From Parasphingorhabdus sp. (GTDB lineage Bacteria; Pseudomonadota; Alphaproteobacteria; Sphingomonadales; Sphingomonadaceae): 64,000 bases of DNA. The stretch covers positions 586,631 to 650,630 of the forward strand of contig JBDWAQ010000005.1 of the NCBI GenBank assembly GCA_039978835.1, read 5' to 3'. Shown here one piece after another: positions 26,495 to 63,783 of the stretch (its first letter is position 1; the number at the start of each line of letters is the position of its first letter). The notes under the pieces were generated by a model. The model was not told the DNA's origin, did no database searches, and saw only the letters and a list, made by a program, of their open reading frames with translations. A program made the translations under genes and the position numbers.

Positions 26495-26507
26495 ATTCTC
26501 TCTCTCC

Positions 26508-29108: not shown

Positions 29109-29109
29109 A

Positions 29110-36980: not shown

Positions 36981-36999
36981 TAGCATCGCAGAGCCTTCC

Positions 37000-38133: not shown

Positions 38134-38157
38134 TTTCCGTCCTCCCCAACGTCGCTT

Positions 38158-38892: not shown

Positions 38893-39080
38893 GGAGCCTA
38901 CTCCCGATCAATATTGTTTTCCGAAGACGAGATTACCGGAATTTCGTGTATTACGATGCATTTTTATTTTTAGGCACCCATGAATATTGCTCACGCGGCC
39001 TATCAGCGTGACTAATTTCCCACTGCGTCCAATTATCGATACATTCGAGATCACGTTCAAAAAATTGGATTGGGGAAACG

Positions 39081-40655: not shown

Positions 40656-40679
40656 GCCGCACTGAAAGAGGAAACAAAG

Positions 40680-41834: not shown

Positions 41835-41847
41835 GGAAGGGTTACTA

Positions 41848-43774: not shown

Positions 43775-43776
43775 AT

Positions 43777-45048: not shown

Positions 45049-45075
45049 CCTACAATGTTGTGGAGCGGTTGAACA

Positions 45076-46284: not shown

Positions 46285-46398
46285 AATGTGTACCATCTCA
46301 GTAACAGGCTGTGACTCAATTGACTAAAGCAACCGGGGGTCGCTTTACAAACTGGGGTTAGTCATTCAAAAGATTAGCCTAACTTATGTGGTAGAAAA

Positions 46399-48775: not shown

Positions 48776-48792
48776 GATATTCCTCTATCCGC

Positions 48793-49920
48793 TTAGCTTG
48801 CCATAAATTCACGCAGTACCGCAATGACGCGATCATTTTGCTCGGGAAGGCCGACCGTGATGCGTAGGCAATTCTCCGGACCACCGGCATTGACCGGGCG
48901 TGGAATTATGCCATTGGCCTCCAGATAGGCGCCCGCACCAGCAGGCGTTTTTGCATCGCTGGTAAATTTCAGTAGATAGAAATTCGCCACCGACGGGATG
49001 AACTCTATGCCCATTTCGGTTGTTGCAGCCGCAATGCGTTCCAATTCCCTATTGTTCATATTGCGCATCTGCTTGGCATAATCCTGATCCAGTACCGCGG
49101 CTTCCGCAGCGGCCAGAGCGGCGGCATTGGCGTTAAACGGTGTGCGGATGCGTTGCACCGCGTCAATGATCGCGCTGGGCGCATACATCCAGCCGATCCG
49201 CAGAGCTGCAAGGCCGTAGAGTTTGGAAAAAGTTCGGGTCATCACCGTGTTTTCACCTGCCGATACCAGCGCTGAACCGTCCTCATAGTCGTCATTTTCG
49301 ACATAATCGGCATAGGCGGAATCACACAGTAAGATGATGTGAGGCGGCAGACCATCGCGCAGGCGCTGCAACTCGCTGCGAGAAATATATTGCCCCACCG
49401 GATTATTGGGGGAGGCGAGTACTACCATTTTGGTTTTGTCCGTTACTTTTGCCAACATGGCATCGGTATCCGGTTTCAGATCATCCTCTGGTGCGGTAAC
49501 GGGCGTCGCGCCCTGGGCGATGGCATGAACATAGGCCATGCCAAAACTATATTGGCTGACGACCACCTCATCGCCCGGAGACAGATAGGCTCGCATCAAC
49601 AACTGAATCAGTTCATCGGATCCATTGCCACAGACAATGTTATCAGGGTCGATATCAAAAGTGCTGCCAATAGCGGAACGTAAGGCAAATTGGCTTCCAT
49701 CCGGATAACAGCTCAAGCCATTGTCGTCGGTAAAAGCAGCATAAGCGGCCTTGGCCTTCGGGCTGGGCCCGGACATGGATTCATTGGAAGAGAGTTTGAG
49801 CGGTTTTTCTACCCCTTCGATCGCGCCTTTCCCCTGTACATAGGGAGATAGGCTCAGGACGCCGGTTGTCGGTTGGGGCGTATTGCTGTCCGATATGATG
49901 TTGAGATTATTTGTGGCCAT
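48793..49920 (-). CDS. HisC-family (class I/II) PLP aminotransferase
   Basis: LKLSSNE, GNGSDELI, SPNNPVG, DSAY and RTFSKLYGLAALRIGW (PLP Lys) motifs. Confidence 0.88.
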   Translation of the reverse strand: MATNNLNIISDSNTPQPTTGVLSLSPYVQGKGAIEGVEKPLKLSSNESMSGPSPKAKAAYAAFTDDNGLSCYPDGSQFALRSAIGSTFDIDPDNIVCGNGSDELIQLLMRAYLSPGDEVVVSQYSFGMAYVHAIAQGATPVTAPEDDLKPDTDAMLAKVTDKTKMVVLASPNNPVGQYISRSELQRLRDGLPPHIILLCDSAYADYVENDDYEDGSALVSAGENTVMTRTFSKLYGLAALRIGWMYAPSAIIDAVQRIRTPFNANAAALAAAEAAVLDQDYAKQMRNMNNRELERIAAATTEMGIEFIPSVANFYLLKFTSDAKTPAGAGAYLEANGIIPRPVNAGGPENCLRITVGLPEQNDRVIAVLREFMAS

Positions 49921-49923
49921 CGA

Positions 49924-51570
49924 CTAACCCCTTTTGCAACCATCTTCAAACACCGGCTCGCGTATGATGAATGGCCAAGGTGTTGCCATATCCTCTGTCG
50001 GGACCTCTATCAAGCAAGGTTCGCGCCGTTCGAGAGCAGCTTTTACGGCTCTCTCCAACGCTTCAGGTGAGGTTACGCGCTCGGCTCTTATACCAAAGCT
50101 ATCTGCATATTTGATAAAATCAGGATTATGCAGGTCAGAAGCGATCAATCTTCCATCAAACCACTCCTTTTGCTGACGCTGAACATTCTGGAACTTATTA
50201 TTGTTGAACAGCACAGTGACGAGCGGCAGGTTGTAAGCTGCTGCCGTTGCCATTTCATTGGCGGTAAACATGAAACCGCCGTCACCAACGATATTCACAA
50301 CAGCTTTGTCGGGATGAGCAGCCTGCACACCCAATGCCGTGGCATAACCATAGCCCAATGTCCCTTGATAACCGCAGCTAACGTGGTGGCGTGGTTCATA
50401 TACCGGGAATGCATACCAAGAGGCATAACCGGCCTGCGTGATTTCATCCACGAAAAACCCATCATCAGGTAGGGCGCGGCGGATGGCATCGAGAAAACCG
50501 ACCTGCGGTTGAACTTGTTCCTCAATCTGACGACGCAGATTGGCTTTAACACCAGTGAGCTCCTCTTCACGCGATGCTTTCGGCTCGCTGATCTTCTCGA
50601 GCGCTGCGAGCAGGGCAGGGACTGCATCTGCGGCGTCGGCATGGATCGAAACTTCGGGGACGTCGATACGGTCGAGTTCCTCCTCGTCAATATCAATGCG
50701 GATGATCTTCATATCCGGGCCGATACCCCAATAGAGATATTGTTGCTCCATCCGGGTACCCAGGCCAATAATAACATCGGCCTGTTTCCACATATCATTT
50801 CCGGCTGGGAACATTTGCGACAGATAGCCGCGATCACTAATCACGCCGCGTCCGCTGCGGAAACTGACCACCGGTGCTTGCAGGAAAGTTGCGAGTTGCT
50901 CCAATGCGGGACCAGCTGCAACTGCGCCGCCACCGGCAATGATCATGGGTTTTTTCGCACCTGCCAAGAGTTTTGCCGCGCGGTCAATGGCATCGGTATC
51001 CAGTGCTGGCCCAGCCGGTATATCGGCGGCGGGTAAAAGCGACACATCGACTTTCTCTGCCATGATATCCATCGGCATTTCCAGACTGATCGGACGTGGG
51101 CGTCCGCCGCACATGTAATTAAACGCTTCATTTACCAATCCCGGAGCCTCTTGCGGTGTCATCGCACGGTCCGCCCATTTGGTCAGGCTGCGCATGGTCG
51201 CCAATTGATCGGGCAGTTCGTGCAGATAGCCGATGCCCTTTCCAAGGCCGACAGTCGGAATTTGACCGGTCAGGCAAAATACCGGCGCGTTGGTGGCATA
51301 GGCCGAACAGATCGCGGCTGTGCTGTTCAATACGCCAGGACCCGGGACAACCGCATATACGCCTGGCTTGCCGGTGGAGCGGGCATAGCCAAATGCCATA
51401 TAGGCAGCGCCCTGTTCGTGCCGTGTACAATAAGTCGTGATCGTATCACCGGCATTATACATCGCATCAAAAAAGTAATCTAGCTGTCCACCGGGAAGAC
51501 CAAATACCGTATCTACACCGTTAGCCATAATTTGACCCAATATTGCTTCGGCACCTGTCATTTCAGTCAT
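49924..51570 (-). CDS. ThDP-dependent enzyme (acetolactate synthase-like / 2-oxoacid decarboxylase)
   Basis: FGLPGGQ, RHEQGAAYMA, VPGPG and GDGGFMF...NN ThDP-binding motif. Confidence 0.88.
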   Translation of the reverse strand: MTEMTGAEAILGQIMANGVDTVFGLPGGQLDYFFDAMYNAGDTITTYCTRHEQGAAYMAFGYARSTGKPGVYAVVPGPGVLNSTAAICSAYATNAPVFCLTGQIPTVGLGKGIGYLHELPDQLATMRSLTKWADRAMTPQEAPGLVNEAFNYMCGGRPRPISLEMPMDIMAEKVDVSLLPAADIPAGPALDTDAIDRAAKLLAGAKKPMIIAGGGAVAAGPALEQLATFLQAPVVSFRSGRGVISDRGYLSQMFPAGNDMWKQADVIIGLGTRMEQQYLYWGIGPDMKIIRIDIDEEELDRIDVPEVSIHADAADAVPALLAALEKISEPKASREEELTGVKANLRRQIEEQVQPQVGFLDAIRRALPDDGFFVDEITQAGYASWYAFPVYEPRHHVSCGYQGTLGYGYATALGVQAAHPDKAVVNIVGDGGFMFTANEMATAAAYNLPLVTVLFNNNKFQNVQRQQKEWFDGRLIASDLHNPDFIKYADSFGIRAERVTSPEALERAVKAALERREPCLIEVPTEDMATPWPFIIREPVFEDGCKRG

Positions 51571-52207
51571 TGGGTTCTAGCTTCTTTCTCATTTGCAGCA
51601 TTTAGCTGCTTGTTGCAAATTGTTGAACTCAAAGCGGACACTTTCCCACTTCAGAGCGCTATGTTCGAGAAGAAGCCCGATAAGCACAATTGAATCAATC
51701 TAACGCTATCGGATTAGCTGACCTAATCACTGACTGTAAAATCGAGAATATCGCTTTTGTCGTCAGCTGAGTTACTGACAACTGTCGCTGTTTTATGATG
51801 GGGAAAGCGCAGCGTGCCTGCAGACACTTGCGGCAGAGGTAGCAGTGAAAGAACCTGGTCTGCCAACGTTGTCCACCAGCAAGGCGTTTAACTATGCCCC
51901 AGCCTAAAGGCACTGCGGATTACAACAGGCACTAAGGGCCGCATGTGGCCCTATCCTGATCTTCTGCCGACGCCGGAGGCATCGGCTCAACCCAAACCGG
52001 TCAGTCATTGGCAATTGGAGTGATCTAGCGGTTGGTTCGATTTCAGAGTGTGCATGAGTGGAAAGCGGACAATAAGCGGACGTCGATGTTGCCAGTTTAA
52101 GGTTGCTATTGCTATTTCATTTAGAGGAACACCATAATAGGCTCGGAACGCGAGTTCTTTTCCTGCTTCGAACCTCGGAAACGAATGCAAATTCGTTTGT
52201 AGTATGC

Positions 52208-52930
52208 TTAAAGCGACCATGCCCGTCTGAATTGTGAGGGAGTGAAACCGGTAGCCTTACGAAACTGGCGCGTGAATGCACTCTGATCAGCATAGCCGGT
52301 ATCCAAAGAAATTGATGCAATCGGCTTGTTAGTCTTAAGCAACTCTTGACGGGCGAATTCCAACCTTTGCTTCAAGATCCATTGCCCGGTTGTGAGCCCA
52401 AAAATATCTCGTATTCGGCGATCAACTTGATAGGCTGAAAGGCAAGCCATCTTTGCTAAGGAATCGATTTCTGGAGCCTCCGACAGATTCTCCATGACAT
52501 GATCAATCGCCACAACCAGTCGTTCATATTCAGAGTGGGAAGTGTCGGGAGCACGCAAGTCTTGGGATACGCCGGCAATTCCAATCAGTATGTCATTCTC
52601 ATCAAACAGAGCATGTTTATTGGTTAGGCACCAGCCAACCTTGCGGTTAGGATAGATGTGCATTTCCAGCTTGTTGGTGATAGCCTGACCAGTGCTAATC
52701 ACCTGTTGGTCCTGACCCTCATAGCTTGCACCAAGGCGTGCGCCCAAAACTTGTGATGGGCGGCGTCCAATAAGCTCAGACTTGTGCTGCAGGCCGGATC
52801 GCTCGACCAATGTGTTATTCACGCTCATATAATCGCCGTCGATGTCTTTGGTGAAGAACACGGTGTCAGGAAGGCAGTCAAACAATCCTTCCAATGTCGA
52901 GATTTGATTGCGCTCGTTCACTTCGCCCAT
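52208..52930 (-). CDS. AraC-family regulator with an N-terminal PAS-like domain
   Basis: FDCLPDTVFFTKD PAS segment and GYADQSAFTRQFRKATG AraC signature; divergent from the hydroxyproline operon. Confidence 0.85.
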   Translation of the reverse strand: MGEVNERNQISTLEGLFDCLPDTVFFTKDIDGDYMSVNNTLVERSGLQHKSELIGRRPSQVLGARLGASYEGQDQQVISTGQAITNKLEMHIYPNRKVGWCLTNKHALFDENDILIGIAGVSQDLRAPDTSHSEYERLVVAIDHVMENLSEAPEIDSLAKMACLSAYQVDRRIRDIFGLTTGQWILKQRLEFARQELLKTNKPIASISLDTGYADQSAFTRQFRKATGFTPSQFRRAWSL

Positions 52931-53051
52931 CGACCACCTTGTCTATAAATTGTGCAAAAACACTAGTTTTCATTCTTCTTCTGGTCAAGACATTGTCCGC
53001 GCTTAGGCTATCATCGTGCACAATATGATCGCTGAAGAATTGGAATTGAAT

Positions 53052-53999
53052 ATGACTGACGGTGAAAATGTATTCTCTGGGTGCATGCCCGCCCTGATGA
53101 CACCCTGCGATGCTGCTGGTGTGCCTGATTTCGGGGCGTTGGTCGCAAAGAGCCAAGAGTTAATAGCGGCCGGTATGGAGGCGGTCATTTATTGCGGCTC
53201 AATGGGCGATTGGCCTTTGTTGACGGACGAGCAGCGCTGTGAAGGTGTGCAAAAACTATGCGAAAATGGTATCCCAGTGATTGTAGGTACCGGTGCGCAA
53301 AATACGCAGCGCGCAACTACCATCGCGGCCCATGCCGAGAAAGTTGGCGCAGCCGGACTGATGATTATCCCACGGGTTCTGTCGCGTGGGACATCTCATG
53401 CAGCGCAACGCATACATTTTGCGTCTGTTCTGGATGCTGCGCCCACTTTGCCCTCGGTAATTTATAATAGCCCCTATTACGGTTTTGAAACGAAGGCGGA
53501 GCTGTTCTCTAGTCTTCGGACCGATCACAAGAATCTCGTCGGGTTTAAGGAGTTTGGTGGGTCGGATTCGCTTAGCTACGCGGCTGAAAATATCACCGCC
53601 GGTGACCCTGATTTAACCTTGATGGTCGGCGTGGACACGCAGGTCTATCACGGCTTTGTCAATTGCGGGGCCAGCGGTGCGATTACCGGTGTAGGTAACG
53701 CATTGCCACGCGAGGTGCTGCGCCTCGTGGATCTATGCGAGAAGGCCGCTACGGGAGATGCCGAAGCCCGCAAGTTGGCTTATGAATTGGATACTGCCTT
53801 GCATGTCTTGGCCACGTTCGATGAAGGGCCTGATCTGGTACTGTATTACAAGCATCTGATGGTTCTTGAGGGAAGCCCGGAATATGAGCATCACTTCTAC
53901 GGAACGGATAAGCTCAGCTCAACTCAGAAAGCCTATCTTGAGCAGCATTGGAAGCTATTCCGCAATTGGTGGGAAAGCTGGCCAGGCGGCACCTTTTGA
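53052..53999 (+). CDS. DHDPS-family protein, probable pyrroline-4-hydroxy-2-carboxylate deaminase
   Basis: PALMTP, GSMGDW, YNSPYY and GFKEFGG motifs; adjacent to the hydroxyproline epimerase. Confidence 0.82.
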   Translation: MTDGENVFSGCMPALMTPCDAAGVPDFGALVAKSQELIAAGMEAVIYCGSMGDWPLLTDEQRCEGVQKLCENGIPVIVGTGAQNTQRATTIAAHAEKVGAAGLMIIPRVLSRGTSHAAQRIHFASVLDAAPTLPSVIYNSPYYGFETKAELFSSLRTDHKNLVGFKEFGGSDSLSYAAENITAGDPDLTLMVGVDTQVYHGFVNCGASGAITGVGNALPREVLRLVDLCEKAATGDAEARKLAYELDTALHVLATFDEGPDLVLYYKHLMVLEGSPEYEHHFYGTDKLSSTQKAYLEQHWKLFRNWWESWPGGTF

Positions 54000-54033
54000 G
54001 CGCCTTTTCCAATAGTAAACTGAGCGACAGACT

Positions 54034-54969
54034 GTGCATGTAATCGACTCACACACCGGTGGGCAGCCAACACGAGTGATCGTTGACGGCGGTCCTGACT
54101 TGGGAACTGGAACGCTGGCAGAGCGCAAGCTCCGATTTGGCGAACGGTTTGATGATTATCGTATGAAAGCGGTTTTGGAGCCGAAATGCTCCGACGCAAT
54201 GGTTGGTGCGCTGTTGTGCCCGCCGACATTGCCTGATGGTGATTGTTGTGCAGGAGTGATATTCTTCAACAATAGCGGTTATCTGGACATGTGCGGCCAC
54301 GGAACAATCGGTCTGATGGTCACGCTTGGGTATCTGGACAAGATAGGTCTCGGCAAACACTTGTTGGAAACGACAGTTGGCATTGTTGAAACTGAATTGC
54401 TTTCATCGAACACCGTTTCGGTCGAAAATGTGGCAAGCTACTGCCTGAAAAAAGACGTCACCATTGACGTGGACGGATTGGGGCCCGTGGCCGGGAACGT
54501 AGCTTGGGGCGGCAATTGGTTCTTTCTCGTGGAGCAAGCACCGATTCCTCTCAATAGATCAAACATTCGGGCCTTGTCCGAAGCTGCTACAGAAATACGC
54601 CGGGCATTGGTCCAGCAGTCCATCACCGGCGTCGATGGCGCGGAGATCGACCACATCGAGTTTTTCGAAACACCGGAGGATGGGCCTGCCGACAGCCGCA
54701 ATTTCGTCCTTTGTCCGGGGCTGGCTTATGATCGCTCGCCATGCGGAACCGGCACTAGCGCAAAAATCGCCTGCCTTGCCGAGTCCGGAAAACTTGCACC
54801 AGCCGAGGAATGGACCCAAGAAAGCATCATCGGCAGCCGCTTTCGCGGAGTATACCGCCGAGACGATGCTGGACGGATCATTCCCACCATCACTGGTGAG
54901 GCACATATCTACTCTGACACTCAACTGATTTTTCAAACTGGCGATCCTTTTATGCACGGGATCGGGTAA
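54034..54969 (+). CDS. 4-hydroxyproline 2-epimerase (proline racemase family)
   Basis: IDSHTGG, MCGHGTIG and DRSPCGTGTSA, with both catalytic Cys present. Confidence 0.88.
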   Translation: MHVIDSHTGGQPTRVIVDGGPDLGTGTLAERKLRFGERFDDYRMKAVLEPKCSDAMVGALLCPPTLPDGDCCAGVIFFNNSGYLDMCGHGTIGLMVTLGYLDKIGLGKHLLETTVGIVETELLSSNTVSVENVASYCLKKDVTIDVDGLGPVAGNVAWGGNWFFLVEQAPIPLNRSNIRALSEAATEIRRALVQQSITGVDGAEIDHIEFFETPEDGPADSRNFVLCPGLAYDRSPCGTGTSAKIACLAESGKLAPAEEWTQESIIGSRFRGVYRRDDAGRIIPTITGEAHIYSDTQLIFQTGDPFMHGIG

Positions 54970-54970
54970 G

Positions 54971-56227
54971 ATGAAGTCGGGTCAAGAAGCGGTGATCATT
55001 ATCGGTGGCGGGATCATCGGAATTTCCTGCGCTCATTATCTTGTAGATGCTGGGTACAAGGTGACGGTGATCGAGCAGGGCACCATTGCCGGTGCATGTT
55101 CACACGGGAATTGCGGGTATATCTGCCCCAGTCATGTCCTCCCGCTGACCACATCAGATGCGATCTGGGATGCGGCAAGATCGCTGTTTAACTCGGCTGC
55201 TACTTTCCGCGTGAAACCGCGTTTCGATGCTGCCTTTGTCAGTTGGATGTGGCAGTTCGTTAAACGCTGTAACCAGCGCGATATGCTGAAGGCTGCGGGT
55301 CACCTTCACGCTATTCTAAGCTCGTCGATGGCGGAGTATCACAAGTTACTGGGTGAAGACGAGATGGGTAGCCAGTGGCGTCGGAGCGGCCTTATGTATG
55401 TATTCCAGACGGAAGTTGGGCTGAGCGATTTCGCCAATACAGACGAATTGCTCACCGACCAATTCGGCGTGACCGCCCGGCGGATCGAGAGCGCGGAATT
55501 ACCAGAATTGGATGTAGCACTTCGCCCGGATCTGGCGGGTGCGTACCTGTATGAAGGCGATGCTAGCATTCGGCCGGATCGCTTGAGCAAGGCTTGGACG
55601 GAAAAGTTAATCCGTGCCGGTGTGCAATTTGTCGAAGGTTGTACTTTTTTGGGTCTTGAGAAAAAGACGGACGCAGTCAGTCAAATCATAACCTCGCATG
55701 GGACGATGCAAGCTGACCACTTTGTTTTAGCCACAGGTGCGGTTAGCGCCAAGCTTGCCAAGCATTTCGGCACCGACATACCGATCGAGCCGGGCAAAGG
55801 CTATTCCATTACTATGGAAAAGCCACAGGATGGGCCAGAGTATCCCATGCTTCTGCCTGAACATCATGTTGGTGTCACGCCCTTTGACGATGGATTGCGG
55901 CTCGGATCGATGATGGAATTCGTCGGTTATGATCGGTCAATTCCTAAATCGAGATTGCAGCAGCTTAGGCAGTCAACACAGCTCTATTTGCAGTCTCAAT
56001 TGCCTACGACTAACTTGGAAGAATGGTACGGTTGGCGTCCGATGACATGGGATAGCTTGCCAATTATCGGACAAGTTCCCGGGTTCGCAAATGCCTATCT
56101 TGCGACCGGACATAACATGCTTGGCCTGACCCTGGCGCCGGCGACAGGGAAACTCATTAGTGAAACAGTTCAGAGGCAAACGCCTCATATCGATCCGGAG
56201 CCATTTTCTCCGGACAGGTTTAGATAA
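54971..56227 (+). CDS. FAD-dependent D-amino acid dehydrogenase, probable D-hydroxyproline dehydrogenase
   Basis: IIGGGIIG, CSHGNCG, PGKGYS, WYGWRP and ATGHNMLG motifs. Confidence 0.83.
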   Translation: MKSGQEAVIIIGGGIIGISCAHYLVDAGYKVTVIEQGTIAGACSHGNCGYICPSHVLPLTTSDAIWDAARSLFNSAATFRVKPRFDAAFVSWMWQFVKRCNQRDMLKAAGHLHAILSSSMAEYHKLLGEDEMGSQWRRSGLMYVFQTEVGLSDFANTDELLTDQFGVTARRIESAELPELDVALRPDLAGAYLYEGDASIRPDRLSKAWTEKLIRAGVQFVEGCTFLGLEKKTDAVSQIITSHGTMQADHFVLATGAVSAKLAKHFGTDIPIEPGKGYSITMEKPQDGPEYPMLLPEHHVGVTPFDDGLRLGSMMEFVGYDRSIPKSRLQQLRQSTQLYLQSQLPTTNLEEWYGWRPMTWDSLPIIGQVPGFANAYLATGHNMLGLTLAPATGKLISETVQRQTPHIDPEPFSPDRFR

Positions 56228-56263
56228 CCGCATCTTACAACGGCCAACAAAAAGGAACTAGCA

Positions 56264-57700
56264 ATGTCAGTTTTTAGAAACTTTATCGACGGTGATTGGA
56301 TACTGTCGGAATCGACAGTCAAGAACATCAATCCAGCTGACACTAATGATATCATTGGTGAATATGCGCAGGCCGATGCTGATCAAGTGGAACAGGCGAT
56401 TGCTGCGGCGAATGACGCCTTTACGGGCTGGTCGCGCGGTAGCATTCAGCAGCGTTTTGATTGTCTAGACGCGATCGGCACTGAAATTCTGGCTCGGAAG
56501 GCGGAGCTGGGCGAGCTACTGTCGAGAGAAGAAGGCAAGAGCCTAGCCGAAGGCGTCGGTGAGGCTGCGCGTGCTGGCCAAATATTCAAGTTCTTTGCTG
56601 GCGAAACACTTAGGCTACAGGGCGAATTGGTTGCGTCGGTCAGGCCGGGTGTCGATGTTGAAATGACCAGAGAGGCTGTTGGCTCGATTGGCATTATAAC
56701 GCCTTGGAACTTCCCCATTGCCATTCCGGCTTGGAAGATCGCACCGGCGCTCGCCTATGGTAACACCGTAATATTCAAACCGGCCAATCTCGTTCCCGGC
56801 AGTGCTTGGGCGATAGCGGAGATTATTGCCCGTTCGGGTTTACCAAAGGGCGTGTTTAACTTGATCATGGGATCGGGCAGCTCGGTTGGAGGCGCTCTTC
56901 TCAACGATAAGCGCGTAAAGGCGATCAGCTTCACTGGTTCGGTGCAGACAGGCGGTATTGTCGCTGCTGCATGCAGTAAACGGAACGCAAAATATCAGTT
57001 GGAAATGGGCGGTAAGAATCCGCTTATCGTTCTTGCCGATGCAGATATTGATAATGCGGTAAACTGCGCATTGAACGGCGCATTCTTCTCGACCGGTCAA
57101 CGTTGCACCGCATCGTCGCGGCTTATCGTCGAAGCTTCCGTCCACGATGCGTTTGTTGATGCGTTAAAGCTGGCCATTGAAGATTTGACAGTGGGGGATC
57201 CACGCAAAGATGGCACCCAGATCGGTCCGGTAATTGATGAAAAACAGCTGAAGCAGAATCTGGAATATGTTGAAATCGGTAAGGCAGAGGGAGCTACCCT
57301 GCTTACCGGTGGGAGCCGATTGGATCGCGAGACGCCCGGTTTTTATCAGGCACCCGCACTGTTTGTTGATACTCATAACGATATGCGCATCAACCGTGAG
57401 GAAGTGTTTGGTCCTGTCGCTACTGTCATCAAGGTGGCGGATTTTGACGAGGCAATTGCGATTGCTAACGATACAGAATTCGGCCTTTCTGCAGGCATTT
57501 GCACCACATCTTTGAGATTGGCGGGTCGGTTTAAGCGTGAGAGCCAAGCGGGCATGGTGATGGTGAATTTGCCGACTGCTGGTGTCGACTATCACGTACC
57601 ATTTGGCGGTACAAAAGGGTCCAGCTTTGGATCCCGCGAACAGGGAAGTTATGCGCGCGAATTTTATACGACGGTCAAAACCGCCTATATTTGCCCCTGA
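56264..57700 (+). CDS. Aldehyde dehydrogenase, probable 2-oxoglutarate semialdehyde dehydrogenase
   Basis: TPWNFP, LEMGGKNP, STGQRCTASSR and EEVFGP motifs; hydroxyproline operon context. Confidence 0.83.
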   Translation: MSVFRNFIDGDWILSESTVKNINPADTNDIIGEYAQADADQVEQAIAAANDAFTGWSRGSIQQRFDCLDAIGTEILARKAELGELLSREEGKSLAEGVGEAARAGQIFKFFAGETLRLQGELVASVRPGVDVEMTREAVGSIGIITPWNFPIAIPAWKIAPALAYGNTVIFKPANLVPGSAWAIAEIIARSGLPKGVFNLIMGSGSSVGGALLNDKRVKAISFTGSVQTGGIVAAACSKRNAKYQLEMGGKNPLIVLADADIDNAVNCALNGAFFSTGQRCTASSRLIVEASVHDAFVDALKLAIEDLTVGDPRKDGTQIGPVIDEKQLKQNLEYVEIGKAEGATLLTGGSRLDRETPGFYQAPALFVDTHNDMRINREEVFGPVATVIKVADFDEAIAIANDTEFGLSAGICTTSLRLAGRFKRESQAGMVMVNLPTAGVDYHVPFGGTKGSSFGSREQGSYAREFYTTVKTAYICP

Positions 57701-57776
57701 CATTTTTGGCATGGTACCGGCTGTTGGACTACTTCACGGACTTATCTGGTCTCCAATAGGAATTTTTGCTGTGACT

Positions 57777-58934
57777 ATGCCGTCACTTCCACCCTTTGTC
57801 GACGATATCGAGAGGGGACAGAGGATAAACAATCTTCGGGTCGCTATGGCGGGCACCGGTCAAGATGTGGTTATTTTGACTCCCAGCGCCAATATGCGGT
57901 ATTTCCTCGGTCAGACTTTTTATGAAAGAGAACGGTTTCACGGAGCGATCATTACAAGTGATCGTGCGATATTCATCTGTCCGAAATTTGAAGATACGGC
58001 GGTAACTGCCAGGCTTGCGGTGCCAATGGAGATGGCATTTTGGGAAGAGCATGAGAACCCCTATGCGCTTGTTGCAGCCATACTGGCTGACCGTGGCGTC
58101 AAGCTGTGTTCGTTAGATACCAATTGTTCGTATGGACACGCCTCGCAAATCTTTGATGTTCTTACGTCATTGAATCAGCCGGTTCGCTATGGCTCGGCAA
58201 ACTCGGTCATCTCACCGTTGAGAACTTGAAAGTCCGATGTCGAACTGGCACTCATGTCGGCGGCTAAACAACTCACTTTGGGTATCCACCGGACAATCTT
58301 CAGCTGGATACAACCGGGCATGAAAGCCAGTGTGGTGATTGCAGAGATCGATCGCCTACACCGCGATGGCGGTGCGGATAACGGTAGCTCTTTTTGTGCC
58401 GTTCAATTTGGCGAAGCGACGTCGCATCCTCACGGCGTCCCCGGTGATCCTGTGTTGCAGAATGGCGACCTTATCTTGATCGACACCGGCTGCACAATTG
58501 ATGGCTATAATTCTGACATCACCCGGACATACGCCCTGAACAAGGTGGATGATGAAATCGAGGATCTTTGGCAAGTCGAGAAGGAAGCGCAGGAGGCCGC
58601 GTTCGATCTGGCAGCGCCCGGCATCGCCTGCGAAGATGTAGACAAGGCTGCGCGCGATGTCCTGATTAGCCATGGATTGGGCCCGGACTATGATCTGCCG
58701 GGCCTACCTCATCGCACGGGCCATAGCATTGGTCTGGAGATTCATGAACAACCCTATCTGGTAAAAGGTGACCAAACGTCGCTGGCCGAGGGCACGTGCT
58801 TTTCCAATGAACCTATGATCGTGGTTTCGGAGAGGTTTGGTATCCGGTTGGAGGATCATTTTTACGTCACACCCACAGGTTCAGCGTGGTTCACTAAGCC
58901 GCAACACGGCCTGTACCAGCCATTTGAAGAATAA
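57777..58934 (+). pseudogene. M24 Xaa-Pro peptidase interrupted by one in-frame TGA (58227-58229)
   Basis: ORFs 57582-58229 and 58254-58934 are in the same frame (SPLRT*KSDVELALMS). Metal ligands IDTG, SDITRT, HRTGH, NEP and RLED are intact. Confidence 0.8.
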
Positions 58935-58970
58935 TGTTTTCAACGGAGGAGGTCGCGACGTGTGGGAACT

Positions 58971-58987
58971 AATGTCCGCAATTGGGT
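58971..58987 (+). repeat. Dispersed repeat AATGTCCGCAATTGGGT
   Basis: 17/17 match to the reverse complement of 10621-10637 and 16/17 match to 63319-63335. Confidence 0.65.
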
Positions 58988-59044
58988 TGAATCATTGCCG
59001 ATATCTCTTGCGGGCGGGATAAACGGGGCTGGCTGCAAAGGTAC

Positions 59045-59129
59045 GCGGGCGTGGCGGAATTGGTAAATGCGCGGGATTCAAAATCCCGTGCCGCAAGGAG
59101 TGTGGGTTCGATTCCCACTGCCCGCACCA
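59045..59129 (+). tRNA. Second complete island-borne tRNA-Leu(CAA), copy B
   Basis: 85 nt, 80/85 identical to copy A, same CGGGA-TTCAAAA-TCCCG anticodon arm and ACCA end. It has a G-U pair in the acceptor stem and a mismatch in the variable arm. Confidence 0.88.
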
Positions 59130-59163
59130 TCAAAACTGGCAGACAGTTTCGTAGGCATTCGCG

Positions 59164-59595
59164 CGGAACATCGGCGATTTGGTTAGTGGTCCAGAAATCA
59201 GAACTCGAGCGACAATCACGCAGCGTAAGACAGGTCGGCCTTTCCAGTTTGAGATCGCGGCAGACGCCAGAGCAAGCCTGTTCGCCTGGCTGGAACTCAG
59301 AGGTGGTGACGTCGAGGACTTTGTGTTTCCAAGCCGTGTGGATCACGCACGGCATCTCAGCACTCGGCAATATGCAAGGCTGGTCGATGAGTGGGTTGAA
59401 GCGATTGGCCTGCGACCTGGGGAATATGGCACGCATTCGCTGCGCCGAACTAAAGCTTCAATCATCTACAAAGCCACAGGCAACATCCGGGCAATCCAAA
59501 TATTGCTCGGGCACTCCAAGATCGAGAATACCGTGCGATACCTTGGCGTCGATATTGAAGACGCTCTCACGCTTGCCGAGAAGACTGAGATCTGA
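59164..59595 (+). pseudogene. 5'-truncated tyrosine recombinase (phage integrase family)
   Basis: IGDLVSGPEIRTRA...QRKTGRP, then HSLRRTKA and LLGHSKIENTVRY (H-x-x-R, H, Y). An in-frame TAG at 59152 lies upstream, and the N-terminal part with the first catalytic Arg is absent. Confidence 0.8.
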
Positions 59596-59939
59596 CCGAT
59601 GTTGGATGCCAGCCTTGTCCGGGCTGGCTTCCGCAACTGGGGGTGGAAGCTGACGATGGCGTTCAGTCCGAAGTGTAGCGGCTCCATTCCAATGGAGAAA
59701 CGTGACTTCGAGGATGTAGGACGAGCTTAAGTTCACACAGTTTTGATTAGGCTTGTCGATATTCCGACGGCAATACGCCTGTCCAGCGAACGAATGCGCG
59801 TCTAAAATTTGCAGATTCGCTTACTTGCAATTCGGGAGCTCGAGGGAGCATTTTTTTCTCTTCTTTGTGGTGAAAATGTTGGTCAGAGGATCAACAGCCC
59901 ATAGAATGACCGTCGATCCTCTCAATCCGTTGCGGAGCG

Positions 59940-60824
59940 TTAAGCGCTACTCAGCTCTGTCAGCATCGTTTTGAGACGCGTTTGCGCGTCAGACGATAGC
60001 GGCAGAAGCGGCCGACGAGGCGCTCCGACATCTGCGCGTTGAAGAGCAAGGCCTGCTTTGACAGCAGCGGCAAGACCCGATGTCACAATGAATTCGAGAA
60101 ACTCGAATTGCTTGTAAAATAGACTGCGCGCTTGATCATCATTGCCCGCCTGAATGGCAGTGAACAACCGACCCGGCAGATCCCCGATGAGGCACGGTGC
60201 AGCGGTGCACCAACCGCTTGCGCCTGCATTGATCGCTTCGAGCGCCATGTGGTTGCACCCATTGAAGAACGGGACTTCACCACCCGATAGCTTATAGATC
60301 TTGTGCATGCGTTGAATGTCGCCAGTGCTTTCCTTGATCATAGTGGCATTGTCGATTTCATCGACCATGCCCAGCATGAATTCGGGTGACATATCGACGC
60401 CGCAAGTCGCCGGATTGTTGTAAATCATGATCGGCAGTGGGGTCGCGTTCGACACGGTCTGATAGTGCTGGAATATCTCTTCTTCGCTCAGCTTGTAGTA
60501 TGAGAAAGGAGACAGCATGATCGCGTCGGCTCCGATGGAATGCGCATGTTTGACGCGTTTCACCGCTTGCTCCGTCGTCAGTTCGGCAACTCCAATAACG
60601 ACCGGGACCTTGCCAGCCACATAGGTCACCGTTTTCTCAGCAACCGCATTCCATTCCGCTTCGCTCAGATAGGCCGCTTCGCCAGCGCTACCCAGCGCTG
60701 CGATGGCATCCACTTTGGCAGCGAGCAAGGTATCGATCACCGTTTCAAGCTTGCCAAGATCGACATTCGTATTGTCATCGGTGAACGGGGTGACGGGGTA
60801 TGCAATAATTCCTGAAAGGTTCAT
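59940..60824 (-). CDS. DHDPS/N-acetylneuraminate lyase-family protein
   Basis: AYPVTPF, LGSAGE, IYNNPATCG and IKESTGD (Schiff-base Lys) motifs. Confidence 0.85.
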   Translation of the reverse strand: MNLSGIIAYPVTPFTDDNTNVDLGKLETVIDTLLAAKVDAIAALGSAGEAAYLSEAEWNAVAEKTVTYVAGKVPVVIGVAELTTEQAVKRVKHAHSIGADAIMLSPFSYYKLSEEEIFQHYQTVSNATPLPIMIYNNPATCGVDMSPEFMLGMVDEIDNATMIKESTGDIQRMHKIYKLSGGEVPFFNGCNHMALEAINAGASGWCTAAPCLIGDLPGRLFTAIQAGNDDQARSLFYKQFEFLEFIVTSGLAAAVKAGLALQRADVGAPRRPLLPLSSDAQTRLKTMLTELSSA

Positions 60825-60835
60825 ATTCTTAGTCC

Positions 60836-61612
60836 TTAGATACAATCTGTGTGTGTTTTGAGCGCTTGGCGCACGAAGTAGGCGAAATTCACTTTGTTGC
60901 GTTTGTCGGTTGAGACCCAGTCATGCGCTTCTTGAGCGAGTTCATGAGAGACAGGCTGGATCTGCCCAGCAGCCATGGCGAGCAGTTGAAGCTTTGCGGC
61001 GCGCTCTATCAGAACGGCCAGGTTGCATGCTTCTTCGATGGTCTTGCCGGTGACGAGTTGACCGTGATGAGCCAAGAACAGCGCGCGATTTTTGCCCAGT
61101 GCTTCTGAGATCAACTCGCCTTCCTCATTGCCAACCGGCACGCCGGGCCATTCCGCCAAGAAGGAACAATCATTGTAGAGCGCGCAGGTGTCCATTTGAG
61201 AGATCATCAAAGGAACCTTCAGCATTGAAAGCGCGGCAATGTTCGTGGGGTGTGTATGGATGATGCAATTCACATCCGGATGCTCTTTGTAGACCCAGGT
61301 GTGAAAGCGATTGGCAGGGTTCGCCATGCCTTTGCCGTCCAGCGGATTGAGATCTTCATCAACCTCAATCAAATTGTCCGCGGTGATCTCGTCAAAGCCA
61401 AGGCCAAAGCGCTGGGTGAGGAAAGTTTTGGGCTGTTCGCTGCGACAGGTGATCTGTCCGGCAAGGCCGGAATCATGGCCTTTGTCGAACAGAATTCGGC
61501 AGGTGATGGCCAGTTTCTGGCGATCGGTTAAAGCGACATCCTGAAGAAGATCGCTCATAGCGCTTTGAGCGCTATGCATCAGATCATCCTTGGTTGCGGT
61601 TGCTGTTTTCAT
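60836..61612 (-). CDS. Class II aldolase/adducin-family protein
   Basis: AGQIT, NRFHTWVY, IIHTHP and LAHHG zinc ligands. Confidence 0.85.
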   Translation of the reverse strand: MKTATATKDDLMHSAQSAMSDLLQDVALTDRQKLAITCRILFDKGHDSGLAGQITCRSEQPKTFLTQRFGLGFDEITADNLIEVDEDLNPLDGKGMANPANRFHTWVYKEHPDVNCIIHTHPTNIAALSMLKVPLMISQMDTCALYNDCSFLAEWPGVPVGNEEGELISEALGKNRALFLAHHGQLVTGKTIEEACNLAVLIERAAKLQLLAMAAGQIQPVSHELAQEAHDWVSTDKRNKVNFAYFVRQALKTHTDCI

Positions 61613-61730
61613 TTCTAATTTCCTTAGGGATTCGGAGAGTTTTTATTGACAATGATTATCAACTAGAGATAAACAGGCCCAATAGTAAGGCCCAGTTTGG
61701 CAAATATGACTGGTCCAGATTGGAGTGGCG

Positions 61731-63200
61731 ATGTCGAGAGCTTGGGACGTCCAATTTTCGCTGGAGAGAATGGCAGGCAAAACGCTGCATGCCAGCCTGC
61801 TCGAGCAGCTCATATCTGACATAACAAGCGGGCGACTGCTGCCGGGGAGTATGCTTCCAGGAACACGGGCATTGGCCCAGCAGCTAGGCATCAACCGCAA
61901 GACAGTGCAGCAAGTGTATGAAGAGCTTGAGGCGCAAGGCTGGCTGGAAACGCGCAGCCGTTCGGGCACTTTTGTATCACAAAGTCTGCCTGAGAATGGC
62001 CTGACACAAAGCGACGCAGCTCTGGTTGAAACGGCCACGAGCGCCAAAATGCCCTCGCAGCTCTTGGAGGGTTTGTATAACGAAGCCTTATCAAGCTTCC
62101 AGCATGCCAATATGGTGAATGACGGTACGCCGGACCAGCGCAATATCCCCTATGAACTTCTTGCACGCACATACCGCCGCGTTTGCATGGGCATGAGGCA
62201 AGGCTTTGAACTCGGCTATGGTGACCCCAAAGGCACGCATGGCTTTCGCAAGTCCGTCTGCACAATGTTAAACAGTGATCGGTTCATGAATTGCGATCTG
62301 GATCAGGTGTGCATTGTACGCGGAAGCCAGATGGGCATTTACCTGACTGCAAAGGTCCTAGACCCGCAAGCCGGGGCGATCGTGATGGAGGAGCTCTCCT
62401 ATCTGCCCGCCAAAGCCGCGTTTCAATCGAACGGTTTTGAAGTGATTGATTGCCGTCTCGACGAGAACGGGCTTGAGATCGACCATTTGCGTAACATTCT
62501 TGAACGGCAACCGATTGCAGGGATCTATCTAACTCCGCATCACCAATATCCGACGACCGTATGCCTTCCAATGGACCGGCGCTTGGAGCTGCTCGATTTG
62601 TCGCGAACATACGGCTTTGCAGTGATCGAGGATGATTACGATCACGAGTTTCACTATGCGGCTAACCCGATTCCACCACTCGCAAGCCTGCCGAACTCGG
62701 AAAATGTCATCCATATCGGCTCAATGTCCAAGGTGTTTTCACCAGGATTGAGGCTCGGGTATGTTGCTACCAGTGCACAGTTCATAGAACGTATCGCACA
62801 GGAAATCATTGTGGTTGACCGTCAGGGTAATACGCTGAGCGAACTGGTTCTTTCCGACCTTATGGAAAGCGGCGAGGTGAAGCGTCATATTCGCAAGACG
62901 CGCAAGCTTTACGAGGCGCGGCGTGATTTTGCTGTGGTAGAGTTTCGGCGGGTGTTTGGCGATCAGGTATCATTCACAACGCCGAGCGGTGGTCTGGCGA
63001 TCTGGGCTGACATCTCAAAGCTGACCCATGGATTTTCGTCAGTCGATTTCGGCAGCCGCGATCTGACGTTGAACACATTCTACACCTCCGATGAAACACA
63101 GCCCACGCATGTGCGATTTGGCTTTGGAGGTATCAACGAGCGGGAGATTACCCGTGCAATCGAATTGTTGTCAGAAGCTATTAATCGGAAGGGAGCCTAA
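61731..63200 (+). CDS. MocR/GabR-family regulator (GntR HTH plus PLP aminotransferase domain)
   Basis: LPGTRALAQQLGINRKTV HTH, TPHHQYPT, EDDYDHEF and SMSKVFSPGLRLGY motifs. Confidence 0.9.
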   Translation: MSRAWDVQFSLERMAGKTLHASLLEQLISDITSGRLLPGSMLPGTRALAQQLGINRKTVQQVYEELEAQGWLETRSRSGTFVSQSLPENGLTQSDAALVETATSAKMPSQLLEGLYNEALSSFQHANMVNDGTPDQRNIPYELLARTYRRVCMGMRQGFELGYGDPKGTHGFRKSVCTMLNSDRFMNCDLDQVCIVRGSQMGIYLTAKVLDPQAGAIVMEELSYLPAKAAFQSNGFEVIDCRLDENGLEIDHLRNILERQPIAGIYLTPHHQYPTTVCLPMDRRLELLDLSRTYGFAVIEDDYDHEFHYAANPIPPLASLPNSENVIHIGSMSKVFSPGLRLGYVATSAQFIERIAQEIIVVDRQGNTLSELVLSDLMESGEVKRHIRKTRKLYEARRDFAVVEFRRVFGDQVSFTTPSGGLAIWADISKLTHGFSSVDFGSRDLTLNTFYTSDETQPTHVRFGFGGINEREITRAIELLSEAINRKGA

Positions 63201-63318
63201 GCAAAGAAGGTCTAGTGTAACGCAACCGTTGTTATCGCGGATACATTTGTACGCTGACCCAGTAATAGGTCCCGCAACGGAGCGGAAAACGTATTAGTGC
63301 AACTAAAGGTTACATTTC

Positions 63319-63410
63319 AATGTCCGCAAGTGGGTCGGAAGTCGACTGTCAGCTTTCTGAAGTGCAGGAGCCTAAACAAGACAGTCCGCAAACGGCCCAG
63401 AATCAGCCAT
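63319..63410 (+). repeat. Dispersed-repeat units near the right island end
   Basis: AATGTCCGCAAGTGGGTCGGAAGTCGAC (from 63319) and a second GTCCGCAA unit at about 63385. Confidence 0.55.
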
Positions 63411-63650
63411 AATGGATGCAGCGATTGCAGGTGCTTGCCTAAATTTTGTTTGCGTTACCTATGCCCCGCTTAGACTAGCTGGAGCAGAATAATTGCTGCA
63501 GAACGATCAATTTTATAAAACGCTTGATCAGGTTAATGAGGCAAATTGGGATCAACGATTATATCAATTTGGGTCAAGACAATGGCTACTTTGCTTACTT
63601 TGATTCTTAATGGGAGGGGAGGGTATTAAACCGCATCAGCGAGCACAATA

Positions 63651-63670
63651 CTTACACAAAACCTTACACA
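63651..63670. promoter_or_regulatory. Candidate integrase arm-type sites
   Basis: Tandem direct repeat CTTACACA at 63651-63658 and 63663-63670, 60-80 nt inside the right att core. Confidence 0.4.
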
Positions 63671-63729
63671 CTTTTCAGTTGTGCAAGATAATATGTTATG
63701 TTATCAAATAGTTACGTTAGTCCCGTCTC

Positions 63730-63783
63730 ACTCAAAATCGAGTTCCGCAAGGAGTGTCCGTTCGAGTCGGACCAGGGGCACCA
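63730..63783 (+). pseudogene. 3' half of host tRNA-Leu(CAA), starting at the anticodon loop (attR)
   Basis: ACTCAAAATCGAGTTCCGCAAGGAGTGTCCGTTCGAGTCGGACCAGGGGCACCA, preceded by non-tRNA sequence (GTTAGTCCCGTCTC). Confidence 0.92.

What the first reader, a model, noticed from the sequence alone, without database searches (positions are those of the whole stretch)
58971..59654. Second replacement tRNA sits as a cassette against a decapitated integrase, between two repeat units
Seen: copy B (59045-59129) is 80/85 identical to copy A, but the flanks share only 5 nt (TCAAA) after CCA. About 35 nt downstream begins a tyrosine recombinase lacking its N-terminus but retaining HSLRR, GH and Y. The block is bracketed by dispersed-repeat units at 58971 and 59630. 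No ACTCAAAA junction precedes copy B, so simple tandem integration at the host site does not explain it. The D-stem changes keep pairing (C-G gained, G-U introduced), while the acceptor and variable arms are weakened. Inference: either a relic of a second, related tRNA-carrying element whose tRNA and integrase travelled together, or a tRNA-mediated rearrangement that truncated the recombinase.
Basis: partly seen in the sequence, partly recalled or inferred. Interest (0 to 1): 0.65.

Follow-up and report, generated by a model that had tools for sequence, protein, structure and literature searches.

The report
Orphan tRNA from a decayed second island
The second tRNA-Leu gene is real and probably still foldable, but it is most likely the last surviving piece of a second, related mobile element that fused with the main island, and the broken recombinase beside it is an unrelated neighbour, not its partner.

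Summary
Observation confirmed. Copy B (59045-59129) is a full tRNA-Leu(CAA), 80/85 identical to copy A. Its flanks are unrelated to A's, and a 5'-truncated tyrosine recombinase starts 37 nt downstream. Seven assemblies and three independent read sets carry the same junctions, so it is not an artefact.

The recombinase fragment is residues 69-210 of a 210-aa, catalytic-domain-only family. That family never neighbours this tRNA: 0 of 8 recombinase loci, 0 of 48 tRNA loci. The tRNA's usual partner is a 437-aa integrase lying directly upstream of it, found in about 33 of 48 Sphingomonadales loci and absent from the window.

Close relatives of the island (98.5% identical) run unchanged to 59023. 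They then have about 211 nt of their own right arm and the att core. The block 59024-63711, which holds B, the recombinase stub and a DHDPS-aldolase-MocR module, is missing from them. B keeps 13 nt of the integrase-type elements' trailer. The window's right arm carries the CTTACACA repeats typical of those elements.

Best reading: a degenerate two-element array. E1 carries A; a remnant of E2 carries B. The internal att junction and E2's integrase have been deleted. The two bracketing repeats belong to different units, so B is not a cassette. Orphaned replacement tRNAs are common in this family (11 of about 37 loci). Modest interest.

The parts
9281..9324 (+). Host tRNA-Leu(CAA) 5' half, ending in the att core ACTCAAAA (9317-9324); this is attL of the composite island
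   Evidence: It joins with 63730-63783 into a perfect 85-nt tRNA (cloverleaf -30.9 kcal/mol).
9325..9477 (+). Left arm of element E1, the 'design II' type with no integrase. It contains an inverted arm-type motif, TGTGTAG, about 45 nt before tRNA A.
   Evidence: The same arm is present in L016, L041, L034 and L040. L041 is 89% identical over 9283-9737.
9478..9562 (+). tRNA-Leu(CAA) copy A, the family-standard replacement tRNA
   Evidence: It is 100% identical in 44 of 48 Sphingomonadales loci.
9563..59023 (.). Body of E1, a catabolic cargo mosaic. In relatives, its last module (52000-59023) lies directly next to E1's own right arm.
   Evidence: The X6 contig is collinear from 15110 to 59023. 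X17 and X18 contigs are 98.5% identical over 52000-59023, after which they diverge.
58971..58987 (+). Dispersed-repeat unit (TAATGTCCGCAATTGGG) belonging to E1, not to the B block
   Evidence: It is present in relatives X5 and X6, which lack B.
59024..59042 (.). Junction filler of unknown origin between the E1 breakpoint and the B unit. It has no family promoter.
   Evidence: Relatives diverge from the window after 59023. No sigma-70-like site was found. No match was found elsewhere.
59043..59142 (+). The B unit: tRNA-Leu(CAA) copy B (59045-59129) plus 13 nt of family-type 3' trailer (TCAAAACTGGCAG)
   Evidence: blastn to 20 integrase-type loci covers 59043-59142 at 91-92%. Beyond nt 13 the trailer similarity is at chance level (p=0.75).
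59143..59166 (.). 24 nt of unassigned sequence between B's trailer and the recombinase truncation point
   Evidence: no significant similarity to any trailer or locus.
59167..59595 (+). 5'-truncated pseudogene of a 210-aa catalytic-domain-only tyrosine recombinase (residues 69-210). Arg-I is lost.
   Evidence: PF00589, E 9.5e-16. 94% identical to P0001. The closest solved structure is the XerD catalytic domain. A 99%-identical intact copy exists in metagenome X5.
59608..59643 (+). GC hairpin (59608-59628) followed by a TTCCGCAACTGGGGG repeat unit. This is the conserved 3' flank of the recombinase gene.
   Evidence: Alignments to L004, L008 and L057 keep the hairpin plus GTCCGC-N-GGG.
59815..63356 (-). 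Cargo module: DHDPS-family protein, class II aldolase and a MocR/GntR regulator
   Evidence: 91% identical to L058 7469-11013, which sits in an unrelated context. Absent from relatives X6, X17 and X18.
63648..63729 (+). Right arm of the composite island, the 'type 2' arm, with CTTACACA repeats at 63651-63670. It is not E1's own arm.
   Evidence: The CTTACACA repeats are shared with the integrase-bearing element L035. Second-element contigs in X6, X17 and X18 are 84-85% identical. E1's arm in relatives aligns only from 63712.
63730..63783 (+). att core ACTCAAAA plus the host tRNA-Leu(CAA) 3' half (attR)

Best explanation
The 54.4-kb insert in the host tRNA-Leu(CAA) anticodon loop is a fused, degenerate array of two elements from one family. 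Members of this family disrupt that tRNA and bring a whole replacement copy.

E1 (9325 to about 59023) is an integrase-less member and carries copy A. The right-hand 4.7 kb (59024-63729) is what remains of a second member, E2. E2 was of the common type built as core, 437-aa integrase, tRNA, cargo, right arm, core.

I infer that the two sat in tandem at the same att site. A deletion of roughly 1.7 kb then removed E1's 211-nt right arm, the internal core, and E2's integrase and tRNA promoter. It ended about 20 nt before B. A direct illegitimate exchange could have produced the same result.

A separate rearrangement inside E2 placed a truncated 210-aa recombinase gene, which is ordinary cargo or junk, 37 nt after B.

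B is therefore an orphaned replacement tRNA. It is structurally intact but redundant with A. It lacks its family promoter and terminator, and it carries five substitutions in a gene that is otherwise invariant. If it is expressed at all, that would be by read-through from the co-oriented upstream operon.

Shown: the anatomy, the breakpoints, the absence of the block in relatives, and the lack of tRNA-recombinase linkage. Inferred: the tandem stage, the order of events, and B's expression.
For: 1. Relatives X6, X17 and X18 match the window at 98.5% up to 59023. They then have 193 nt of other sequence and rejoin at 63712, 18 nt before the core. The joint is reported as 'skips 4688, 193 letters between'.

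2. E1's own arm in relatives resembles the window's arm only loosely: about 19 of the last 30 nt match, by eye. A different element in the same relatives has an arm 84-85% identical to the window's.

3. The window's arm shares its CTTACACA repeats with L035, an integrase-bearing element.

4. B's homology to the family spans 59043-59142. This includes a 13-nt trailer typical of integrase-type elements (10 of 13 matching L020).

5. The 437-aa integrase lies directly upstream of this tRNA type in about 33 of 48 loci. tblastn finds no trace of it in the window.

6. Eleven of about 37 fully evaluable loci have this tRNA with the integrase truncated or gone. Breakpoints often lie within about 120 nt of the tRNA, as in L036, L038, L039, L052 and L053.

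7. The recombinase family and the tRNA never co-occur.

8. B's 5/85 divergence, against 1.5% for E1 versus its relatives, argues against a recent copy of A.

9. The right-hand cargo module occurs elsewhere on its own.
Against: - No genome was found with an intact E1-core-integrase-B junction.
- No other copy of the B variant was found, so the tandem stage is inferred only.
- Two independent breakpoints hugging a 100-nt tRNA unit is an awkward coincidence. It needs either past selection for B or a tRNA-proximal recombination hotspot.
- The 193-nt arm of the relatives could be read only as short loose ends, so its relation to the window's arm rests on about 40 nt.
- The family assignment of B's trailer rests on 13 nt.
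- Relatives' own arrays could not be resolved.
Confidence: 0.6

Rival explanations
1. One reading: B and the 210-aa recombinase are the two surviving halves of one mobile unit, in which this recombinase is the integrase that targets or moves with the tRNA.
For: They lie 37 nt apart on the same strand. Both are relics in the same junction.
Against: None of the 8 loci with intact homologues has a tRNA-Leu. The only tRNA found is a tRNA-Lys 2.7 kb away in L008. None of the 48 loci with this tRNA type holds the recombinase. The family has only a catalytic domain plus about 60 N-terminal residues and resembles Xer catalytic domains. The tRNA's regular partner is a 437-aa integrase on the other side of it. 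Twenty-four unassigned nucleotides separate the two homology blocks.
Confidence: 0.05
2. B is an intra-island duplicate of A that diverged in place. The neighbouring recombinase was truncated by the same duplication or transposition event.
For: The two copies are 94% identical and lie in one island. The TCAAA after CCA is shared.
Against: No flank is shared beyond 5 nt. B's trailer fits integrase-type elements better than A's own trailer. The 5.9% divergence compares with 1.5% between E1 and relatives that lack B altogether. The B block ends in a right arm that is not E1's.
Confidence: 0.07
3. There was never a tandem array. The 4.7-kb block (B to the right arm) replaced E1's last 211 nt in one step, by recombination with another family member. 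A possible mechanism is one crossover at the shared core or last 18 nt and one illegitimate crossover. Alternatively, relatives lost the block and the window's form is ancestral.
For: The last 18 nt and the core are shared between arm types. Modules are swapped freely between related islands: 9738-15109 is replaced in X6, the whole left cargo differs in X17, and the DHDPS module occurs elsewhere.
Against: B would still be foreign, element-derived DNA, so this differs from the main reading only in route. A loss in the relatives would have to create 193 nt of new sequence. The same breakpoint (59023) and the same following sequence occur in four different sources: X5, X6, X17 and X18.
Confidence: 0.22
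4. Copy B, or its junctions, is an assembly artefact caused by the repeated tRNA sequence.
For: The genome is a MAG from mixed samples that also hold more abundant bacteria with near-identical tRNA genes.
Against: B has five private SNPs and no identical run over 28 nt. Independent Logan contigs from three samples cross both junctions with no differences and at the genome's own depth. Seven assemblies carry the flanking gene in the same context, and two were checked to be 100% identical.
Confidence: 0.02

Closest known systems
Sequential (tandem) integration and decay at one tRNA att site: ICE/CIME accretion in streptococci (reviewed in PMC5704250) and tycheposon arrays in Prochlorococcus (bioRxiv 10.1101/2020.12.28.424599)
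   Same: Several elements pile up at one tRNA site. Integrase-less members sit beside integrase-bearing ones. Islands come to contain fragmented integrases and extra tRNA-derived repeats as relics of older integrations.
   Different: In those systems the relics are partial tRNA segments, that is, att repeats. Here the elements carry whole replacement tRNA genes, so the relic is a complete, foldable tRNA. In addition, the internal att junction has been deleted rather than kept.
Rhizobium phages of the vTRX32-1 group (PMC8631192)
   Same: They integrate inside a tRNA-Leu gene, interrupt it, and carry a complete tRNA-Leu that lacks the att motif. The authors propose that this replaces the lost function and prevents super-integration. 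A and B likewise read ATTCAAAA where the host core reads ACTCAAAA.
   Different: Those are 42-45 kb podophages with a 12-bp att motif. Here the carriers are cargo islands with a 437-aa integrase or none, an 8-bp anticodon-loop core, and two elements fused.
Classical tRNA-targeting genomic islands and prophages (integrase sublocation classes; Williams 2002, from my own knowledge)
   Same: Tyrosine-integrase elements with the crossover in the anticodon loop and arm-type repeats near the ends.
   Different: Classical elements restore the tRNA with a partial copy carried in attP. This family leaves the host gene split and supplies a separate whole gene.
Small catalytic-domain-only tyrosine recombinases (PF00589; Xer-like catalytic domain, FimB/FimE-sized)
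   Same: The 59167-59595 fragment has the HxxR, H and Y motifs. Its intact relatives are 210 aa.
   Different: The function of this 210-aa alphaproteobacterial family is not established. The window's copy lacks residues 1-68, including Arg-I, so it is a pseudogene.

Membership tests
tRNA-Leu(CAA)-splitting elements with a whole replacement tRNA (Sphingomonadales family) | Carries the family tRNA-Leu(CAA), of GCGGGCG type, with anticodon loop ATTCAAAA instead of the host core ACTCAAAA | tested here: met
   B is 80/85 identical to the family-standard sequence, which is itself identical in 44 of 48 loci. B's anticodon arm and T arm are identical to it.
tRNA-Leu(CAA)-splitting elements with a whole replacement tRNA (Sphingomonadales family) | A 437-aa tyrosine integrase directly upstream of the tRNA, or a design-II left arm plus att core upstream | tested here: not met
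   tblastn of the L030 integrase against the window finds nothing better than E=0.19. No ACTCAAAA lies upstream of B. E1 sequence runs to 59023, 21 nt before B. The B unit is therefore a remnant, not a complete member.
tRNA-Leu(CAA)-splitting elements with a whole replacement tRNA (Sphingomonadales family) | Family 3' trailer after the tRNA (TCyAAnATAGCAGGCTC... followed by a CACCGCACGGTGGG hairpin) | tested here: inconclusive
   The first 13 nt match, 10 of 13 to L020. The hairpin is absent, and similarity beyond nt 13 is at chance level (p=0.75).
tRNA-Leu(CAA)-splitting elements with a whole replacement tRNA (Sphingomonadales family) | Right arm with CTTACACA repeats, ending in core ACTCAAAA plus the host tRNA 3' half | tested here: met
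   The repeats are at 63651-63670, the core at 63730-63737 and the 3' half runs to 63783. L035 has the same layout. Second-element arms in X6, X17 and X18 are 84-85% identical.
Functional tRNA-Leu (class II tRNA) | Cloverleaf with a long variable arm, G18G19, T-loop, discriminator A73 and CAA anticodon | tested here: met
   ARAGORN and Rfam call it at 57.9 bits. Cloverleaf energy is -31.3 kcal/mol with one broken pair, 46/55. Aminoacylation and expression cannot be tested with these tools. Three RNA runs gave no reads from this bacterium.
Active tyrosine recombinase (PF00589) | Complete catalytic set R-K-H-R-H/W-Y in an intact reading frame | tested here: not met
   The fragment aligns to residues 69-210 only. 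Arg-I (LRGCDL, about residues 59-64 of P0001) and the start codon are missing, and a stop codon lies just upstream in frame.
Integron-like or repeat-bounded gene cassette | The unit is bounded by two cognate recombination sites that move with it | tested here: not met
   The left repeat is present in relatives without B. The right repeat accompanies the recombinase gene in unrelated contexts. The two are in direct orientation and belong to different units.
Tandem accretion array (ICE/CIME-type) | Two elements separated by an internal att site at one integration locus | tested here: not met
   No internal core or arm remains between E1 and B. The array stage is inferred from the two kinds of ends and from relatives that hold both arm types.

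The most novel reading that the evidence does not exclude
In this family, the replacement tRNA gene is the one part that outlives the element. The host copy is destroyed on entry, so selection protects the tRNA while deletions trim everything around it. Islands and chromosomes would then accumulate whole, still-functional 'orphan' tRNA-Leu genes, such as B here and the 11 of about 37 orphan loci elsewhere, some sitting in native-looking positions after a suhB-like gene. These identical tRNA genes might then act as portable homology for module exchange between islands. On this reading B would be a live, dosage-adding or back-up tRNA and a recombination landmark, not a dead scar.
Probability: 0.2. 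Interest if true: 0.55.

Novelty: new member of a known kind. Interest (0 to 1): 0.33.

Why it matters
The result corrects a tempting inference, that the tRNA and the adjacent 'integrase' form one mobile unit. It identifies the real partner integrase of this tRNA type.

It also gives a worked example of how a large catabolic island is built. Two related tRNA-splitting elements fuse, the internal att site and the integrase are lost, and the composite becomes fixed.

The locus shows what a relic looks like in a family that carries whole tRNA genes: a complete tRNA rather than the usual half-tRNA repeat. For annotation, this means that extra, slightly divergent tRNA-Leu(CAA) genes inside sphingomonad islands can be read as markers of past integrations.

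The mechanism itself (sequential integration and decay) is well known, so the finding is instructive rather than surprising.

Tried and rejected
I could not count tRNA-Leu genes, integrases or repeats in the whole genome.

2. A B-specific pattern in metagenome contigs found 0 hits. No B variant appeared among 48 genome-contig loci.

3. I searched metagenome contigs for the first 30 nt of the relatives' right arm, to recover the full 193 nt. There were 0 hits. It is also absent from all fetched loci.

4. I tried to fetch the relatives' contigs by exact-protein look-up with the peptidase and the DHDPS-like protein. Only the window's own species came back.

5. Trailer homology beyond 13 nt is not significant.

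6. Short-word BLAST of B's flanks and the 59596-59830 spacer against all loci and the window found nothing.

7. The promoter and terminator scan of 58800-59900 found none.

8. Three RNA-seq runs labelled organism A gave zero reads on 58200-59900, so there is no expression evidence either way.

9. I considered integration into the replacement tRNA's own anticodon loop. Both A and B are intact, so I rejected it.

10. I considered homologous recombination between A and B as the origin of the layout. The predicted flanks (E1 left arm and core before B) are not there.

11. L038 and L055, two family tRNAs on one contig, looked like a possible parallel array. They lie 368 kb apart, so they are not tandem.

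Full report
**What is there**

The window holds two complete tRNA-Leu(CAA) genes: A at 9478-9562 and B at 59045-59129. Rfam scores them almost equally, at 57.8 and 57.9 bits.

A host tRNA-Leu(CAA) is split in its anticodon loop. The 5' half is at 9281-9324 and the 3' half at 63730-63783. ACTCAAAA occurs at both junctions. Everything between them is a 54.4-kb insert.

A and B are 80/85 identical, and their flanks share only TCAAA. On the class-II cloverleaf, B's five changes have these effects:
- one pair is gained (C11-G25);
- two pairs become G-U (12-24 and 7-75);
- one pair at the base of the variable arm is broken (46/55);
- one D-loop base changes.

Cloverleaf energy is -31.3 kcal/mol for B, against -34.3 for A and -30.9 for the rebuilt host tRNA. 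B is therefore structurally sound.

**The 'decapitated integrase'**

From 59167 to the stop at 59593-59595, the sequence encodes residues 69-210 of a 210-aa tyrosine recombinase family. It hits PF00589 at E 9.5e-16 and is 94% identical to P0001. The family has more than 7,600 relatives at E<=1e-30. The nearest solved structures are XerD and XerA catalytic domains, at E about 1e-4.

HxxR, H and Y are kept. The N-terminal 68 residues, including Arg-I (LRGCDL), are gone, and an in-frame stop lies just upstream. It is a pseudogene.

A marine metagenome run (X5) holds a copy with 1 mismatch in 104 nt that continues upstream with the intact ...KLRGCDLVE... coding sequence. The truncation therefore looks recent.

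**Do this recombinase and this tRNA travel together?**

No. Intact homologues on three alphaproteobacterial plasmids, on four metagenome or Logan contigs and on a Qipengyuania chromosome sit among unrelated genes. ARAGORN finds no tRNA-Leu near any of them.

Conversely, an exact-core search of one genome per GTDB species returned 48 Sphingomonadales loci with this tRNA type. None contains the 210-aa recombinase.

In about 33 of those loci, a 437-aa tyrosine integrase ends about 60-70 nt upstream of the tRNA. In complete cases the order is:
1. host 5' half and ACTCAAAA;
2. integrase;
3. tRNA;
4. a conserved trailer (TCyAAnATAGCAGGCTC... plus a CACCGCACGGTGGG hairpin);
5. cargo;
6. a right arm with CTTACACA repeats;
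7. ACTCAAAA and the host 3' half.

L030 and L035 show this layout. I call this 'design I'.

A minority of loci have no integrase. These are the window's A end and L016, L041, L034 and L040. Instead they have a ~150-nt left arm between the core and the tRNA ('design II'). The window contains no trace of the 437-aa integrase.

The family tRNA is strikingly invariant. It is 100% identical in 44 of 48 loci from many genera. No locus carries B's variants, and a B-specific metagenome scan found none.

**What the relatives show**

Public runs from three other organisms (X6, X17, X18) and one metagenome (X5) contain close relatives of the island. X17 and X18 have a 43.4-kb contig that is 98.5% identical to the window over 52000-59023 (109 differences). 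It then continues with 240 nt unlike the window.

X6 has a 2.5-kb contig that matches 56753-59023. It then has 193 other letters and rejoins the window at 63712, 18 nt before the core. The joint is reported as 'skips 4688, 193 letters between'. X6's island is otherwise collinear with the window from tRNA A onward, apart from one swapped 5.4-kb module.

In relatives, then, element E1 ends about 211 nt after 59023. The whole stretch 59024-63711 is absent from them. That stretch holds B, the recombinase stub, a DHDPS-aldolase-MocR module and repeats.

The module 59815-63356 occurs on its own, 91% identical, in an unrelated metagenome contig.

The last 30 nt of E1's arm in relatives (ACGGATAATTTATAACATATTATCAAGAGC) resemble the window's arm only loosely. 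A different contig in the same relatives carries an arm 84-85% identical to the window's 63648-63756, including the CTTACACA region.

The window's island therefore has E1's left end but another element's right end.

**Where B belongs**

blastn of 20 design-I loci against the window aligns 59043-59142 at 91-92%. That is the tRNA plus 13 nt of trailer. Beyond that point, similarity is at chance level (p=0.75).

Upstream, E1 sequence runs to 59023. Only about 20 nt of unassigned sequence separate it from B. The family promoter is missing, and no sigma-70-like site is detected.

Downstream, 24 unassigned nucleotides separate the trailer from the recombinase truncation point.

B is thus a ~100-nt family fragment, cut on both sides, lying at the left edge of a block that ends in a design-I-type right arm.

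**The two repeat units**

The motif is real and over-represented, but the two units do not bound a cassette. The 58971 unit is part of E1 and is present in relatives that lack B. The 59630 unit, preceded by a GC hairpin at 59608-59628, is the conserved 3' flank of the recombinase gene in L004, L008 and L057.

**Most likely history (inferred)**

Two family members occupied the same tRNA-Leu site in tandem:
- E1, which has no integrase and carries tRNA A;
- E2, a design-I element carrying integrase, tRNA B, cargo and a type-2 arm.

A deletion or illegitimate exchange removed E1's arm, the internal core, and E2's integrase and tRNA promoter. A further rearrangement inside E2 put a truncated recombinase next to B. 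The composite now has no integrase of its own.

Orphaned family tRNAs are common. Eleven of about 37 fully evaluable loci have the integrase truncated or absent, often with breakpoints within about 120 nt of the tRNA. This fits the idea that the tRNA is the part protected by selection once the host copy is destroyed.

B is the most diverged near-complete copy seen, at 5/85 against 1.5% between E1 and its relatives. That fits an older or separate lineage that is now redundant with A.

**Reality of the locus**

Logan contigs from three samples cross both junctions without a single difference. Eight samples hold all sampled words. Two deposited MAGs are identical over the locus. B shares no run longer than 28 nt with A.

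**Comparison with known systems**

Disrupting a tRNA-Leu and carrying a whole replacement that lacks the att motif has been described for Rhizobium phages of the vTRX32-1 group (PMC8631192).

Piling-up of elements at one tRNA site, followed by decay into fragmented integrases and tRNA-derived relics, is known from tycheposons (bioRxiv 10.1101/2020.12.28.424599). It is also known from ICE/CIME accretion (PMC5704250).

The present case is a further example. Its particular feature is that the relic is a complete tRNA gene.

**Limits**

- The tandem stage was not observed directly.
- The relatives' 193-nt arm was read only at its ends.
- There is no expression evidence.

Noticed in passing
window 57582-58934: The M24 (Xaa-Pro) peptidase gene at the end of the hydroxyproline-type operon has an in-frame TGA at 58230-58232. 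MAG annotations split it into a 150-aa Creatinase_N part and a 226-aa Peptidase_M24 part. Intact relatives are 386 aa. X6 shows small indels at 58217 and 58232.
   Followed up: partly
window 59608-59643; L004 about 10640-10700; L008 10634-10678; L001 2601-2615 and 3490-3504: Genes of the 210-aa recombinase family are followed by a GC hairpin and a GTCCGC-N4-6-GGG unit. Intact genes have an inverted GCGGAC copy upstream. The dispersed GTCCGCAAnTGGG repeat seen at module junctions in the island may be linked to this recombinase family, as a possible recombination site or a REP-like element.
   Followed up: partly
L019, L024, L028, L031, L036, L038, L039, L044, L048, L052, L053: Eleven of about 37 evaluable loci carry the family tRNA-Leu(CAA) with its 437-aa integrase truncated or gone. 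In L024 and L039 the tRNA follows a suhB-like gene as if native. L024 has a compensated A7-U pair at the position where B has G-U.
   Followed up: partly
L036 7106-7335: The host 5' half and core are fused directly to the last ~50 codons of the integrase, followed by the tRNA. This is a clean internal deletion of the integrase in a design-I element.
   Followed up: no
window 9738-15109 and 15110-59023, versus runs X6 and X17: Related islands are mosaics. X6 replaces 9738-15109 with 5.8 kb of other DNA and is only about 92% identical over the iac/cat region, but 98.5% identical over 52000-59023. X17 shares only the last 7 kb and has a design-I-like trailer at the start of its 43-kb contig.
   Followed up: partly
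runs X6, X17, X18 laid on window 63648-63786: Relatives hold two different right arms leading into the same core plus 3' half. In X6 the 55-nt core-plus-3'-half contig has about twice the genome depth. This suggests either two elements at one site or two occupied tRNA-Leu loci.
   Followed up: partly
runs X1, X2, X4 laid on window 59040-59142: The samples that yielded this genome also contain much more abundant bacteria (depth about 290 against 11). These carry design-I elements with flanks identical to the Parasphingorhabdus loci L010, L013 and L030. They are a possible source of integrase in trans or of incoming elements.
   Followed up: no
window 59786-59821: Several unrelated contigs in the same samples share this ~36-nt stretch and branch at 59815-59821. 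This is also the left boundary of the DHDPS-aldolase-MocR module shared with L058, so it may be another short repeat at a module junction.
   Followed up: no
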